Of a stretch of DNA of 64,000 bases, positions 19,353 to 23,039 are shown one piece after another. Source of the DNA: Octopus vulgaris (Eukaryota); assembly GCA_951406725.2 (NCBI GenBank), contig OX597834.1, positions 39,308,001 to 39,372,000 of the forward strand, given 5' to 3'. Position numbers: made by a program. Each line of letters opens with the position of its first letter. Position 1 is the first letter of the stretch.

Positions 19353-19403
<51 letters not shown>

Positions 19404-19551
19404 GGGTTAATTGCAACAAGTTGCAATTAACCCTTAATTATAATTATTATAACCCTTACCAAATATGGTCTTTTCCATACCGATAAATCTACTAGGTGAA
19501 ATTTATTAATTTTATTAAATTAATTATATTCCACCCCTATTTGCATATTGA

Positions 19552-19594
<43 letters not shown>

Positions 19595-21286
19595 TATGCA
19601 TATATATATACACACATATATCGATATTAAATCTCTTAAGTGGCAATTATACTATACATACACACACACACACACACATACGTATATATAATAAATAATA
19701 ATTTGGACGAATAATTATAATTCGATAAGTGCATTTAAATGTTGAGTAGAGCCCCGGCACAGTTTATGCTCCCTGTTGTCATCCGTAGTTGTGGTAGACT
19801 TCAGTTGGATTTACTTCAGAAACTCCGCAGTGGCAGTTAGGATAATATTGTTAATTAATATTCGGAGATGGATTTCGTATTAAACTTTTATTCGGTACAA
19901 CATATGTTTCGACCCATCAGACTGGGTCTCTTCAGGTAAATCGACAAAGAAGTTTAACTAGAGATTTTTAGCGCCAGCTGGCTTGTTGTTATACGCCCAA
20001 CAATTTGATGGGCATATAACAAGAGCCGACACTAAAAATCTTTTGTGAGATTTCTTTATCAATGTACCTGAAGAGACCCAAACTGATGGGTTGAAACATA
20101 TGTTGTACCTAATAAAAGTCTAATACGAAATCGATCTCCTACTATCAATTAATACTATATGTATGTATATATATATATATATATTATATTAAATTAGAGA
20201 TAAAACCACTATTAGTCAAATCAAACAGTGAAAATCATAAGCCAATACATAGAAATAAAATTAATTAAAAAATATATAAAAAATATAAAATATAAAAATC
20301 CAATTAAAATATTCAAATTAAAGATCTAATTTATTAGGTCTTTATTATATGTGCATATATATTTATTTATAGAGATTATTTAGATCTTAATTATATATTT
20401 ATATACATTTATATATTTTCATTGATATTTTATATTTTAATAATATGAATAATCATTTTTTTGTAAAATATTTATGCAATTAGATATTGACTATTACTGA
20501 TATTAGATTATTGGTGGGTTTCTTACCTTAAAAATTAATACTTAAAAATTAAAATTAATATTTAACATTATAATCGTTGTTTTGACATAATCATAATCGT
20601 TAAGTTTCTAGTTTGATAATAGATTTTTTTATAAGAAAATTTATTATATTATTTATTTCTTAAAAAATATTGTTTAAATATTTTTGATTATTTATTAAAA
20701 TATTACAATTAACCTGAAGATTGACTGTAACCATAACTCGAATTATTAATTGAATTTAAATTATTGTTATTCGAATTGGTTACGGGCATGAAACGATCGT
20801 AGTGATTTTACTCTTTATCTTAAACTTTTAATACTTTTTGATAATTTATAAAAAATAAATAAATAAATAAATAAATATAAAAATATATAAAAATATAAAA
20901 ATATTTTTAAAAAATTAAAAAAAAAATATATATAAAAAAATTAAAACTAAATAAAATAATAATAAAAAAATATATATATTTATAATTTATAAGTTTAAAT
21001 TATTAATTTAAATAATTAAAAAAAATTTTAACTTTAATTTGAATATTTTAATTGGATTTTTATATTTTATATTTTGTATTTTTTATATATTTTTTAATTA
21101 ATTTTATTTCTATGTATTGGCTTATGATTTTAGCTGTTTGATTTGCCTAATAGTGGTTTTATCTCTAATTTAATATAATATATATTTATACTATAAAATT
21201 AGATTTAATCCTAAATCTAATTTTTGTAGTTTTCCTGTAATTATTATGGATTTACTCCCTAATATTATTATATATTATTATTATTA

Positions 21287-21317
<31 letters not shown>

Positions 21318-23039
21318 ACTTATAAGTAAGGGCTAAAGAAAATTATTTCAAAGCCAATATGCTGATAACAGACTATTAAATCGTCAATTTCCACATATAA
21401 TCTACTCGCTACAGCAAAAATCGAAGAACTGAAGTCGGGCAAGCTGGCCGTTAGAATCAATTTTGAATCAATTTCGGAATTAATCTCATAAAAGACTTAT
21501 TCCTCTTCAGTAGAGCTTACGAGAGAATATAAATAAGATACTTACATGCGCCCATGGAAAAAGCCGAAGCAAAAAACACGAGTACATTTAAGTACCCCAG
21601 TTATATCTAAAAATAAAAATTCTTTGGTCAGCCTCAGTACAACGTGTTGACTGTTCGCCACAACAGGTTATAGTGGTTACCAGTCCCTATAGCGAGTAGT
21701 AATATGTCTACTACTAATATAGGATGAAGTTTTTTTCTCTATAGAAAAAAATTCCATCAAGAAATGTGGCAGCATTTTAACCGTAAAGGTATTTTAATAT
21801 GCTGCCACATTTCTTGATGGAATTTTTTTCTGTAGAAAAAAAAACTTCATCCTATATTAGTATATATATATATATATACGATATAGTGTATATTTAAACA
21901 CATAGAGAATCCACTTATAGGGATTCTACGCGCTAGAAAGAACAGCTAAGTTCTATGGCCACAAAAAAACTCGGGATAAAATTCGACAGGAATAAATTTG
22001 GAAATGAAAATCATTTACCATCTAGTTTCTTGGACCAATTGGTTTCTAATCATCTTTTAGCGAGTCATGGAGAACTCACAAGGTTTGATTTTGCATGACT
22101 CGCTAAAAGATGATTAGAAACCAATTGGTCCAGGAAATTAGATGGTAAATGTTTTTCATTTCCAAATTTATTCCTGTCGAATTTTATCCCGATTTTTTTG
22201 TGGTTATAGAACTTAGCTGTTGTTTCTAGCGCGCAGAATCCCTATAAGTGGTTTCTCTATGTGTTTAAATATACACTATATCGTATAACTAATATATAGT
22301 CTTTTTGACTAAAACTTTTTTACGCGTTAGACCACTGGAAATGTAAATTTTAATTGAATGTTTTGAATTTTAATTAAGTTCCATTTCCCTTTGATATGAT
22401 TATATATATATATATATATATTTGTATGTGTAACGTAATAGTTTAGAAAATAACCATTGGTTTCATATCTAGTGTGAACTAGACATCTATTCAGTCTCTA
22501 TAAACGATAACTGCTCTCTGCAAAGAATGTTTTTTTAAAACACAAGAACGCCGGTGATAGTTAAAGAAATATTCCTCTGAAAATATTTTGGCTGGGCGAG
22601 TTGTCTTCCTTCGCTTGAAGTAAAAAAATTCCGAAAACGTGGACAACTCCTCACGGCTTCCCTCCTATATTTCAGGTATCCTCCTGGCTATTTAAGTTCA
22701 TAAGCATTATTTTTTTCTACTATACACAATTTACATAGTCTTGTTTCATTGCGATAGAGTCCACAAGCTTCTAGTAATTTCCACCTGATGCTAAAGGGCG
22801 TATGGTCACCCTTTAGGCGCATAGCGTGCAGTCCTGGTTTGGACGAATGCTACTACTATTTAGCCCCAGGAAACATCGTCTTCAGCTGGCCATACGATAT
22901 ACTATCTGTATCCTTATACTTTCGAACAAGTGAGTTTGGCATCCCCAATCAGCACGAAACAATATCTGTGTATCGCGATTTCTGGGTTATTTACTTTCAT
23001 CAGCACAAAATAGATCAGTGACGATACACACACACAAAT

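What the first reader, a model, noticed from the sequence alone, without database searches (positions are those of the whole stretch)
19399..22400. 3-kb pile-up of six different foldback elements separated by (TA)n
Seen back to back: a 19-bp hairpin (19399), a double-hammerhead foldback (19845-20160), a 1-kb element with 140-bp arms and a hammerhead (20182-21270), a short-IR element with a hammerhead core (21320-21707), a 68-bp foldback (21712-21862) and a 195-bp foldback (21875-22400). No SINEs and no ORFs occur in this stretch. Inference: repeated insertion into TA tracts creates a hotspot that, if transcribed, gives a chain of long dsRNA hairpins, a possible endo-siRNA/piRNA or ADAR substrate locus.
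Basis: partly seen in the sequence, partly recalled or inferred. Interest (0 to 1): 0.7.

Follow-up and report, generated by a model that had tools for sequence, protein, structure and literature searches.

The report
Array of small inverted-repeat transposon relics
This stretch is a gene-free junkyard where several unrelated small mobile-element relics, most of them hairpin-shaped and one carrying two hammerhead ribozyme motifs, sit side by side between TA-repeat tracts, which is an ordinary though tidy example of a known pattern.

Summary
The core observation holds. Four unrelated long foldbacks sit end to end without interrupting one another: E1 19845-20158, E2 20168-21195, E4 21714-21860 and E5 21879-22283. 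A 40-nt palindrome lies at 19399-19438. The sixth "element" (21320-21707) is not a foldback.

Only E1 carries a convincing hammerhead, one type-I motif per arm on opposite strands, both facing outward. It scores just below Rfam's threshold. The "hammerheads" in E2 and E3 are core boxes with a helix II only.

(TA)n tracts separate the elements, but they are everywhere in this window: 140 tracts, 9% of the bases. Clustering of foldbacks is only marginal (P about 0.02-0.09 within the window).

My best reading is a non-nested array of non-autonomous or truncated mobile elements that inserted at TA microsatellites. E1 matches published descriptions of head-to-head 5'-truncated Penelope-like element (PLE) copies. 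Two other foldbacks in the window resemble them more weakly. E4 and E5 could equally be TA-targeting miniature inverted-repeat elements (MITEs).

The architecture has plant precedents (SaTar arrays) and an animal PLE precedent for TA-microsatellite bias.

The dsRNA potential is real (fold z-scores -24 to -44). Transcription, small RNAs and editing could not be tested. Interest is low to moderate.

The parts
19399..19438 (.). E0: 40-nt mini-palindrome (18-19-nt arms, 2-nt loop) bounded by TTAA on both sides, directly after the (TA)n tract 19335-19400
   Evidence: Perfect arms 19400-19417 / 19420-19437 and no other copy in the window. Sequence read.
19845..20158 (.). E1: 314-bp foldback, arms 19845-20002 / 20006-20158. 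It is read as two head-to-head 5'-truncated copies of a hammerhead-bearing (Penelope-like-derived) repeat with their 3' ends outward.
   Evidence: 81-84% arm identity. (fold -166.6 kcal/mol, z -24). No other copy in the window.
19896..19938 (-). Type-I hammerhead motif in the left arm of E1. Core CUGAAGA, 5-bp helix II with a G10.1-C11.1 pair, GAAAC, helix III of 2 bp with the palindromic loop AUAU, then GUU. The predicted cleavage site is 54 nt from the outer end.
   Evidence: Rfam Hammerhead_1 29.3 bits against gathering 34, E 1.9e-5 on the 316-nt stretch. Strict descriptor hit. Distance.
20064..20108 (+). Type-I hammerhead motif in the right arm of E1. Same architecture, but the 10.1-11.1 pair is G-U. 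The cleavage site is 54 nt from the outer end.
   Evidence: Rfam Hammerhead_1 27.7 bits against 34. Strict descriptor hit. These two are the only strict hits in 64 kb, with 0 hits in 30 Markov shuffles.
20166..20184 (.). (TA)n tract shared by the right end of E1 and the left end of E2
20168..21195 (.). E2: about 1-kb foldback. Outer arms are 126 nt at 96%, extending to about 300 nt at about 81%. The unique AT-rich centre is 20474-20880.
   Evidence: A one-armed relative at 44226 to about 44425 abuts a long (TA)n tract and matches the right arm further in (about 245 nt) than the left arm (about 175 nt).
20714..20801 (+). Hammerhead-like core in the centre of E2: CUGAAGA, a long helix II with a U-U at 10.1/11.1, GAAAC, GAUC, GUA. 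It faces the right end. It is motif-level only.
   Evidence: Relaxed descriptor hit with 11 helix-II pairs. No Rfam hammerhead hit at E<=10. Helix I is weak by eye. The MFE fold shows helix II only.
21195..21224 (.). Small palindrome (12-nt arms) in the unassigned AT-rich stretch 21196-21291, between E2 and the next TA tract
   Evidence: Self-match on the minus strand (E2b 6-35). Sequence.
21292..21317 (.). (TA)n tract between E2 and E3
21318..21711 (-). E3: not a foldback. It is single-copy in the window and has a higher GC content than its neighbours. It is either a solo truncated hammerhead-type repeat read on the minus strand, or plain spacer DNA.
   Evidence: Only a 22-nt inverted repeat at 21393-21414 / 21687-21707. 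Fold z -2.1. No other copy.
21446..21520 (-). Hammerhead-like core in E3 on the minus strand: CUGAAGAG, helix II GGAAU/AUUCC with G10.1-C11.1, then CGAAA. Helices I and III are not convincing, and an 11-nt tandem duplication lies where helix III should be.
   Evidence: Relaxed descriptor hit with 11 pairs. No Rfam hit. Fold.
21714..21860 (.). E4: 147-bp foldback with 67-nt arms, flanked by TA on both sides
   Evidence: z -23.7. A one-armed relative (80%) at 29938-30023 lies between (TA)n tracts, and its homology stops at the hinge.
21861..21878 (.). (TA)9 shared by the right end of E4 and the left end of E5
21879..22283 (.). E5: 405-bp foldback with about 200-nt arms at 93-95% and a 7-nt hinge, flanked by TA on both sides. 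No hammerhead box.
   Evidence: -311.3 kcal/mol, z -44. No CTGANGA box inside it.

Best explanation
This is a non-nested array of small, unrelated, non-coding mobile-element relics. They accumulated one beside another at TA microsatellite tracts, in a gene-free, AT-rich, repeat-laden part of what is probably an animal genome.

The element ends and inverted repeats are shown. The mechanism is inferred: the enzymes that move these elements prefer TA or (TA)n targets. Each new arrival therefore lands in the tract beside an earlier one rather than inside it, which gives a modular chain.

E1 is best read as two 5'-truncated copies of a hammerhead-bearing Penelope-like-element (PLE) 3' region, joined head to head. 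That is why one hammerhead sits on each strand, each pointing outward and each 54 nt from its end.

E2 fits the same scheme. It looks like a longer right-hand copy containing a decayed hammerhead-like core, plus a shorter inverted left copy.

E4 and E5 are either the same kind of twin copy from families without a hammerhead, or ordinary TA-targeting miniature inverted-repeat elements (MITEs).

Nothing indicates a cellular function. If read through by a polymerase, the locus would give long hairpins of about 67 to 200 bp. Within such hairpins the E1 hammerhead sequences would be locked in duplex with their own antisense.
For: 1. Foldbacks are real and unrelated.
- define the arms. Searches give fold z-scores of -24, -44 and -23.7.
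- No cross-similarity appears between E1, E2, E3, E4 and E5.

2. The array is non-nested and modular.
- E1 and E2 share the tract 20166-20184. E4 and E5 share (TA)9 at 21861-21878.
- E4 and E5 are each flanked by TA.

3. TA association.
- 7 of 10 foldbacks in the window have an end within 10 nt of a (TA)>=6 tract, against 13.5% of positions (P=0.004).
- The one-armed relatives of E2 (44226) and E4 (29938-30023) also abut (TA)n at their outer ends.

4. Hammerhead in E1.
- These are the only two strict-descriptor hits in 64 kb, with 0 in 30 shuffles.
- Rfam Hammerhead_1 gives 29.3 and 27.7 bits with every core base present.
- Helix III has 2 bp and the palindromic loop AUAU. PMC4209133 (main text, part 1 of 4, plus passages) describes this for metazoan type-I hammerheads.

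5. Published match for the geometry.
- PMC4209133 reports dual minimal hammerheads about 100-700 bp apart on opposite strands, attributed to truncated PLEs.
- PMC8557442 (passages read) says PLE insertions are heavily 5'-truncated and often have an inverted 5'-truncated copy adjacent at the 5' end, forming inverted repeats. It places hammerheads near the 3' ends and names (TA)n as a preferred target of some clades.

6. The same geometry recurs elsewhere in the window.
- Foldbacks 11775-12046 and 35479-35694 carry hammerhead-like boxes in both arms. All face outward, with putative cleavage sites 42 and 49 nt from the ends.
- CTGANGA-helix II-GAAA motifs number 7 in the window. 30 Markov shuffles averaged 0.17, and 236 decoy box pairs averaged 0.26 with a maximum of 4.

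7. A truncation-like series in the E2 family.
- The left arm, the solo copy and the right copy share the outer end but reach about 175 nt, about 245 nt and more inward.

8. Architectural precedent.
- PMC5907723 (abstract and sections 13, 19 read) describes clusters of unrelated small inverted-repeat elements. Each is flanked by microsatellite, often (TA)n, and none interrupts another. Sizes are 380-1700 bp with terminal repeats of 40-250 bp.
Against: - No reverse transcriptase, GIY-YIG endonuclease or transposase domain was found in 255 translated frames across the window. No autonomous partner of either class is in view.
- The E1 hammerheads fall below Rfam's gathering score.
- The two other 'double-hammerhead' foldbacks gave no Rfam hammerhead hit at E<=10, so their support is motif-level only.
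- Outward orientation in 3 of 3 foldbacks has P=0.125 by itself.
- Target-site duplications cannot be read reliably in TA-rich flanks. The TA/TA flanks of E4 and E5 fit a Tc1/mariner-type MITE as well as a TA-tract insertion.
- Outside the finding the TA association is not significant (3 of 12 ends, P=0.21).
- TA tracts could also have expanded from element ends after insertion rather than having been the target.
- Clustering is only marginal (P 0.02-0.09).
- The E2 truncation series rests on alignments through low-complexity AT-rich sequence.
- No eukaryotic genome or repeat library was available. Copy numbers, full-length parents and empty sites are unknown.
Confidence: 0.7

Rival explanations
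1. All the foldbacks, E1 included, are class II miniature inverted-repeat elements (MITEs) with very long terminal repeats. A TA-specific transposase (Tc1/mariner-like, or a microsatellite-targeting Mutator-like enzyme as in SaTar and MuTAnT) moved them by cut and paste. The hammerhead boxes are passenger sequence captured in the repeat.
For: - E4 and E5 are flanked by TA on both sides.
- A 500-bp element at 53306-53808 has 50-nt terminal repeats and TA flanks.
- A sub-threshold HTH_23 match, a domain type I recall from Tc1/mariner transposases, lies at 57142-57309 (20.8 bits against a cut-off of 24.6).
- The plant SaTar arrays have the same sizes, repeat lengths and modular layout (PMC5907723 sections 13 and 19). 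MuTAnT targets TA microsatellites (PMC4486113, abstract).
Against: - The only relatives of E2 and E4 in the window are one-armed, not full-length.
- The E4 relative stops at the hinge.
- In E1 and in two other foldbacks the hammerhead-like motifs all face outward at 42-54 nt from the ends. That is expected for head-to-head retroelement 3' ends and is unexplained for a MITE.
- No transposase domain passes threshold in 255 frames.
- TA flanks carry little information inside TA tracts.
Confidence: 0.22
2. The locus is a functional hairpin-RNA gene cluster. It is transcribed as a unit and processed into endo-siRNAs or piRNAs, or serves as an ADAR substrate, and the foldbacks are retained by selection for that purpose.
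For: - Very stable long hairpins are predicted: about 67 to 200 bp of near-perfect duplex, z -24 to -44.
- Several plant hairpin microRNA models give sub-threshold hits because of the long stems, for example MIR807 at 66.3 bits and MIR6288 at 58.8 bits.
Against: - All microRNA hits are below their gathering scores (113 and 74), and similar hits litter the whole window at simple repeats.
- Arm identities range from 81 to 96%, as expected for insertions of different ages decaying neutrally.
- The families are unrelated, and two have broken copies elsewhere in the window.
- No promoter, expression or conservation evidence could be obtained.
Confidence: 0.05
3. The inversions are artefacts of assembly, such as palindromic chimeric reads or collapsed repeats.
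For: The source assembly cannot be checked. PMC8557442 notes that complex tandem and inverted PLE structures cause assembly problems.
Against: - The arms differ by 4-19% with scattered substitutions and small indels. Artefactual palindromes would be near-identical.
- The elements are short (147-1028 bp) and have defined ends.
- The E2 and E4 families recur elsewhere in the window.
- There are no N runs.
Confidence: 0.03

Closest known systems
Inverted or twin 5'-truncated Penelope-like element (PLE) insertions with hammerhead motifs (PMC8557442, passages; PMC4209133, main text part 1 of 4 plus passages)
   Same: - The copies are head to head and form an inverted repeat.
- A type-I hammerhead with a short helix III and palindromic loop lies near each 3' end. 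Two hammerheads sit about 125 nt apart on opposite strands.
- The element abuts a (TA)n tract.
- There is no poly(A) tail.
   Different: - No reverse transcriptase or endonuclease ORF, and no longer PLE copy, is in the window.
- The E1 hammerhead looks canonical (5-bp helix II, no extra base after position 9). The papers describe minimal variants as typical of metazoan PLEs.
- Homology of the arms to a known PLE could not be tested.
SaTar (satellite-targeted) non-autonomous Mutator-like elements of guayule and rice, and MuTAnT of Medicago (PMC5907723, abstract and sections 13, 19; PMC4486113, abstract)
   Same: - Linear arrays of unrelated small inverted-repeat elements, each flanked by microsatellite, often (TA)n, with none interrupting another.
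- Element sizes (380-1700 bp) and terminal repeats (40-250 bp) overlap those here.
   Different: - Those are plant class II elements with 8-11-bp target duplications when outside microsatellites.
- Here the hammerhead type points to an animal genome. No Mutator features were found, and at least E1 looks retroelement-derived.
Tc1/mariner-type (Stowaway-like) MITEs with TA target duplication
   Same: Small size, no ORF, inverted-repeat ends, and TA on both sides of E4 and E5.
   Different: - The repeats span the whole element instead of only the termini.
- The termini show no shared or recognisable superfamily motif.
- Only one-armed relatives are seen in the window.
Metazoan non-LTR retrozymes (PMC7229834, search-listing abstract and passages; bioRxiv 10.64898/2026.07.22.740005, abstract only)
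   Same: Short non-coding repeat units carrying a type-I hammerhead with an unstable helix III. They are proposed to derive from PLE pseudo-LTRs.
   Different: Retrozymes are direct tandem repeats that give circular RNAs. E1 is an inverted pair, and a read-through transcript would form a hairpin instead.
Hairpin-RNA (hpRNA) endo-siRNA loci of flies and MITE-derived small-RNA hairpins of plants (recalled knowledge)
   Same: Long, near-perfect inverted repeats that would give dsRNA if transcribed.
   Different: There is no expression or small-RNA evidence here. The structures are explained by the insertion history alone.

Membership tests
Hammerhead ribozyme type I (Rfam RF00163) | Conserved catalytic core: CUGANGA, GAAA, and a U-H cleavage site | tested here: met
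   E1, both arms: every core base is present (alignments; strict descriptor). E2 and E3 have only the CUGAAGA and GAAA boxes.
Hammerhead ribozyme type I (Rfam RF00163) | Score at or above the curated gathering threshold (34 bits) | tested here: not met
   E1 scores 29.3 and 27.7 bits. The whole window at gathering threshold gives 0 hits. E2, E3, 11775-12046 and 35479-35694 give no hammerhead hit at E<=10.
Hammerhead ribozyme type I (Rfam RF00163) | Three helices around the core: helix II closed by G10.1-C11.1, a short helix III, and an open helix I | tested here: met
   E1 left arm has a 5-bp helix II with G-C, helix III AC/GU with loop AUAU, and a 3-bp helix I. The right arm has G-U at 10.1-11.1 and a 4-bp helix I. 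This is not met for E2 (U-U at 10.1/11.1, weak helix I) or for E3 (no clear helices I or III).
Hammerhead ribozyme type I (Rfam RF00163) | Self-cleavage activity | not testable with these tools
   This needs in vitro transcription and a cleavage assay. In the full foldback the motif is predicted to be paired with its antisense.
Penelope-like element (PLE) insertion | ORF with reverse transcriptase and GIY-YIG endonuclease | tested here: not met
   0 of 255 translated frames (>=50 aa, entropy-filtered, whole window) matched RT or GIY-YIG models. Heavily truncated copies are not expected to keep the ORF, so this does not exclude PLE derivation.
Penelope-like element (PLE) insertion | Hammerhead motif near the 3' end (in the pseudo-LTR) | tested here: met
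   In E1 the motif ends 54 nt from each outer end. The criterion is taken from PMC8557442 and PMC4209133.
Penelope-like element (PLE) insertion | Inverted 5'-truncated copy joined at the 5' side (head to head) | tested here: met
   E1's left-arm motif is on the minus strand and its right-arm motif on the plus strand, so both 3' ends point outward. The orientation is the same in 11775-12046 and 35479-35694, at motif level.
Penelope-like element (PLE) insertion | Sequence homology of the arms to a full-length PLE of the same genome | not testable with these tools
   No eukaryotic genome or repeat library was available. The window holds no other copy of E1.
Class II MITE | Terminal inverted repeats | tested here: met
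   E1, E2, E4 and E5.
Class II MITE | Fixed-length target-site duplication | tested here: inconclusive
   E4 and E5 have TA on both sides, but they lie in TA-rich flanks. E1 and E2 ends lie inside or next to TA runs, so the boundaries are ambiguous. 35479-35694 shows no duplication.
Class II MITE | Many homogeneous full-length copies sharing both ends | tested here: inconclusive
   Within 64 kb the E2 and E4 families have one foldback plus one single-arm copy each, and E1 and E5 are single.
SaTar-like microsatellite-targeted modular array | [quoted passage not shown] | tested here: met
   E3 and three short unassigned stretches (21196-21291, 21318-21392, 22284-22400) also lie in the chain.
SaTar-like microsatellite-targeted modular array | Mutator-like origin: 8-11-bp duplications outside microsatellites and a mudrA-type partner | not testable with these tools
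   No such domain appears in the window. Genome-wide copies cannot be reached.
Drosophila-type Foldback (FB) elements (definition recalled) | Long inverted arms built of short tandem subrepeats | tested here: not met
   Tandem Repeats Finder reports no arrays inside the arms of E1, E4 or E5. Only AT-rich low-complexity rows appear in E2.
Plant hairpin microRNA families (MIR807, MIR1120, MIR6288, MIR2655) | Score at or above the gathering threshold | tested here: not met
   66.3 against 113, 44.7 against 86, 58.8 against 74, and 53 against 122 bits. The matches are driven by the long stems.
hpRNA / endo-siRNA or ADAR-substrate locus | Transcription with mapped small RNAs or A-to-I edited reads | not testable with these tools
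   No expression data are available. Only the hairpin potential is shown.

The most novel reading that the evidence does not exclude
An animal genome holds the counterpart of the plant SaTar phenomenon, built by a different engine. Penelope-like retroelements, or their non-autonomous derivatives, target (TA)n and integrate as snap-back, head-to-head twin copies. This makes near-perfect foldbacks whose hinge marks the point where reverse transcription stopped. Repeated hits on the same tract then assemble non-nested chains of unrelated hairpins. If transcribed, such chains would be a ready source of long dsRNA for siRNA or editing pathways.
Probability: 0.2. Interest if true: 0.5.

Novelty: new member of a known kind. 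Interest (0 to 1): 0.25.

Why it matters
The value is mostly in annotation. It shows that hairpin-shaped repeats in such genomes need not be DNA-transposon MITEs. Some can be head-to-head truncated retroelement ends, recognisable by outward-facing hammerhead motifs at a fixed distance from the ends.

If the TA-tract targeting and twin-copy integration hold genome-wide, the locus would be a compact natural record of how Penelope-like elements integrate. PMC8557442 names that mechanism as unresolved: the formation of complex tandem and inverted structures, and the microsatellite bias. It would also extend the modular TE-array architecture from plants to animals.

As a single locus with no expression data, it does not open a new question by itself.

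Tried and rejected
- Rfam at gathering threshold on the whole window gave nothing. The relaxed scan of the whole window was swamped by simple-repeat microRNA look-alikes and told me nothing about hammerheads.
- ARAGORN found no tRNA.
- Pfam scans of 255 frames, to find genes, transposases or RT and so place the organism, gave no domain above cut-off.
- A literature search for two strings of the SINE-like repeat found 0 papers. The organism therefore stays unidentified. My impression that the SINE resembles cephalopod SINEs is recalled and unverified.
- I considered reading E0 as a piggyBac-type end (TTAA flanks). I rejected it because the GGG...CCC polarity is the reverse of the piggyBac termini as I recall them.
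- I considered palindrome formation by breakage at (TA)n cruciforms. I rejected it because the TA tracts lie at the outer ends, not at the centres of symmetry.
- I rejected Drosophila FB-type elements because the arms have no tandem subrepeats.
- The MFE folds of the isolated hammerhead stretches are not distinctive (z -0.5 to -1.8) and add nothing.
- I did not use the bacterial/archaeal genome-contig collection or the phage, plasmid and E. coli collections, because they are irrelevant to eukaryote-like DNA.
- I opened no supplements of any paper. Those of PMC4209133 (hammerhead alignments) and PMC8557442 (element consensus file) might allow a direct comparison with E1.
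Full report
**What is there.** The window is AT-rich DNA (20-42% GC in 2-kb bins) with no N runs. It has no tRNA and no Rfam family at gathering threshold. No Pfam domain passed its cut-off in 255 translated frames. It is full of simple repeats: 140 merged (TA)>=6 tracts cover 9% of the 64 kb, about one every 457 bp. It also holds two abundant SINE-like families. The finding lies in the most AT-rich part (24.6% GC), and its longest stop-to-stop frame is 58 aa.

**Checking the six elements.** Four are true long foldbacks.
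- E1: arms 19845-20002 / 20006-20158, 81-84% identity. RNA fold -166.6 kcal/mol, z -24.
- E2: outer arms 20172-20297 / 21065-21190, 126 nt at 96%. They extend at about 81% to 20168-20473 / 20881-21195, around a 407-nt unique centre.
- E4: 21714-21860, 67-69-nt arms at 96%, z -23.7.
- E5: 21879-22283, about 200-nt arms at 93-95%, -311.3 kcal/mol, z -44.
- The 19399 hairpin is a perfect 18-nt-arm palindrome.
- E3 (21320-21707) is not a foldback. It has a 22-nt inverted repeat with 19 matches and folds like shuffled sequence (z -2.1).
- The five larger elements show no similarity to each other, and none interrupts another.

**Hammerheads.** Only E1 holds up.
- A relaxed Rfam scan gives Hammerhead_1 at 19890-19941 on the minus strand (29.3 bits) and 20062-20110 on the plus strand (27.7 bits). 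Both are below the gathering score of 34.
- All core bases are present. Helix II has 5 bp. Helix III has 2 bp capped by the palindromic loop AUAU.
- A strict descriptor of my own finds exactly these two sites in 64 kb and none in 30 Markov shuffles.
- E2 (20714, plus strand) and E3 (21504, minus strand) contain CUGAAGA, a helix II and GAAA, but lack convincing helices I and III. They gave no Rfam hammerhead hit.
- The relaxed pattern is nevertheless enriched in the window. There are 7 hits. Shuffles averaged 0.17. 236 decoy box pairs on the real sequence averaged 0.26 with a maximum of 4.
- Decayed hammerhead-type repeats are therefore probably common here.

**Is the arrangement more than chance?**
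- The TA tracts between the elements are at background density: 6 in the region against 6.6 expected per 3 kb.
- The window holds 10 clear foldbacks, or 14 if low-complexity ones are counted. Four within 2.08 kb has P=0.022 or 0.087 under uniform placement. This is marginal, and the region was chosen because it looked clustered.
- Foldback ends are associated with TA tracts. 7 of 10 have an end within 10 nt of one, where 13.5% of positions qualify (P=0.004 per element, 0.013 per end). The six foldbacks outside the finding give only 3 of 12 ends (P=0.21).

**What the elements are.** Two published descriptions fit E1 closely.
- Cervera and de la Peña (PMC4209133; main text part 1 of 4 read, plus passages) state that metazoan type-I hammerheads have a 1-2-bp helix III with a small palindromic loop. 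They report dual minimal hammerheads about 100-700 bp apart on opposite strands, which they attribute to truncated Penelope-like elements.
- Craig et al. (PMC8557442; passages read) describe PLE insertions as heavily 5'-truncated, often with an inverted 5'-truncated copy at the 5' side that creates inverted repeats. They place hammerheads near the 3' ends and name (TA)n as a preferred target of some clades.
- In E1 the left motif is on the minus strand and the right motif on the plus strand, so both copies have their 3' ends outward. Each predicted cleavage site is 54 nt from its end.

Two other foldbacks in the window show the same layout at motif level.
- 11775-12046: the CUGAAGAG box is kept in the left arm and CGAAAC-AUAU-GUA in the right arm, 42 nt from the end.
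- 35479-35694: CUGAUGA...GAAACGUU is present in both arms, 49 nt from the ends.
- Rfam does not support either of these.

E2 fits the same scheme.
- Its hammerhead-like core lies in the unique centre and faces the right end, as if the right copy were simply longer than the inverted left copy.
- A one-armed relative at 44226 matches the right copy about 245 nt inward and the left arm only about 175 nt inward. The low-complexity sequence makes the deeper alignment unreliable.

The relative of E4 at 29938-30023 is also one-armed. It stops at the hinge and sits between TA tracts.

E4 and E5 have no hammerhead box and are flanked by TA on both sides. A TA-targeting class II MITE is an equally good reading for them. 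One TIR element with TA flanks (53306-53808) and a sub-threshold HTH_23 match show that such elements may also live here.

**Architecture.** The non-nested chain of unrelated small inverted-repeat elements, each bordered by microsatellite, has been described in plants as SaTar arrays (PMC5907723; abstract and sections 13 and 19 read). Those have very similar sizes (380-1700 bp) and repeat lengths (40-250 bp). TA-microsatellite targeting is also documented for MuTAnT (PMC4486113; abstract). What may be less usual is seeing it in what the hammerhead type suggests is an animal genome, with at least one retroelement-derived member.

**Function.** The hairpins would form if the region were transcribed, and within them the E1 ribozyme sequences would be sequestered. 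Three things look like neutral decay of insertions of different ages:
- the arm identities range from 81 to 96%;
- the families are unrelated;
- broken copies lie elsewhere in the window.

No data on transcription, small RNAs or editing were available. The sub-threshold plant microRNA hits reflect stem length only.

**Limits.**
- No eukaryotic genome, repeat library or expression data could be searched.
- The organism is unidentified.
- Family assignments rest on one 64-kb window and on published descriptions, not on homology to named elements.

**Verdict.** This is a real but ordinary repeat array. The regulatory idea is untested. It is a new member of a known kind, and interest is about 0.25.

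Noticed in passing
window 10177-10410, 14005-14237, 26116-26337 (-), 38594-38826, 47345-47578, 61197-61430 and partial copies: A tRNA-like SINE family of about 230 bp with a B-box-like GAGTTCAAATTCCGC. Copies are 81-93% alike and are often followed by a partial second copy about 217 bp downstream (for example 10194-10345 / 10411-10562). ARAGORN does not call a tRNA. My recollection that it resembles cephalopod SINEs is unverified.
   Followed up: partly
window 36214-36620, 55541-55950, 63513-63730, 51358-51586, 59385-59759, 32646-33057, 34609-34973, 27228-27395, 24614-24752, 18497-18888 (-): A second interspersed repeat family of about 400 bp with 10 or more copies at 70-93% identity, often adjacent to TA tracts. 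It was not classified.
   Followed up: no
window 11775-12046: A 272-bp foldback (arms 78% alike) whose two arms each keep a different half of a hammerhead. CUGAAGAG plus a 7-bp helix II is in the left arm on the minus strand, and CGAAAC-AUAU-GUA is in the right arm on the plus strand. Its right end abuts (TA)n. There is no Rfam hammerhead hit.
   Followed up: partly
window 35479-35694: A 216-bp foldback (arms 90% alike) with CCUGAUGAAGGCUGGAG...GAAACGUUG in both arms. The motifs face outward and lie 49 nt from the ends, resembling the minimal hammerheads described for PLEs. There is no Rfam hammerhead hit, no TA tract at either end and no visible target duplication.
   Followed up: partly
window 22828-23011 (-) and 60482-60664 (+): Two copies (about 80-85% alike) of a repeat that conserves CUGAUGA...GAAAU-(C/U)GCG-AUA, a hammerhead-like core followed by a short stem with a 4-nt loop (palindromic CGCG in one copy, UGCG in the other). 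One copy lies immediately right of the finding.
   Followed up: partly
whole window; e.g. 44132-44244, 58562-58744, 34428-34575: Extreme microsatellite load. There are 140 merged (TA)>=6 tracts (9% of the bases), a run of about 190 bp of (ATT)n at 44430-44590, and (ACAT)n at 19183-19349.
   Followed up: partly
window 53306-53808: A 500-bp element with 50-nt terminal inverted repeats (88%) and TA on both sides. It is a plausible Tc1/mariner-type MITE.
   Followed up: no
window 57142-57309 (+): A short frame with sub-threshold helix-turn-helix matches (HTH_23 at 20.8 bits against 24.6; GerE at 21.8 against 23.5). It may be a transposase remnant. Neighbouring frames gave nothing.
   Followed up: partly
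window 51700-52245 and 62841-63382: Two related blocks of tandem repeats with a period of roughly 135 bp, judged from offset self-matches (51705-52069 against 51840-52196). They look like a short satellite array.
   Followed up: no
window 25788-26067 and 31434-31650: Two further small elements with 55-71-nt terminal inverted repeats (86-95%). In each, the right end runs straight into a (TA)n tract.
   Followed up: partly
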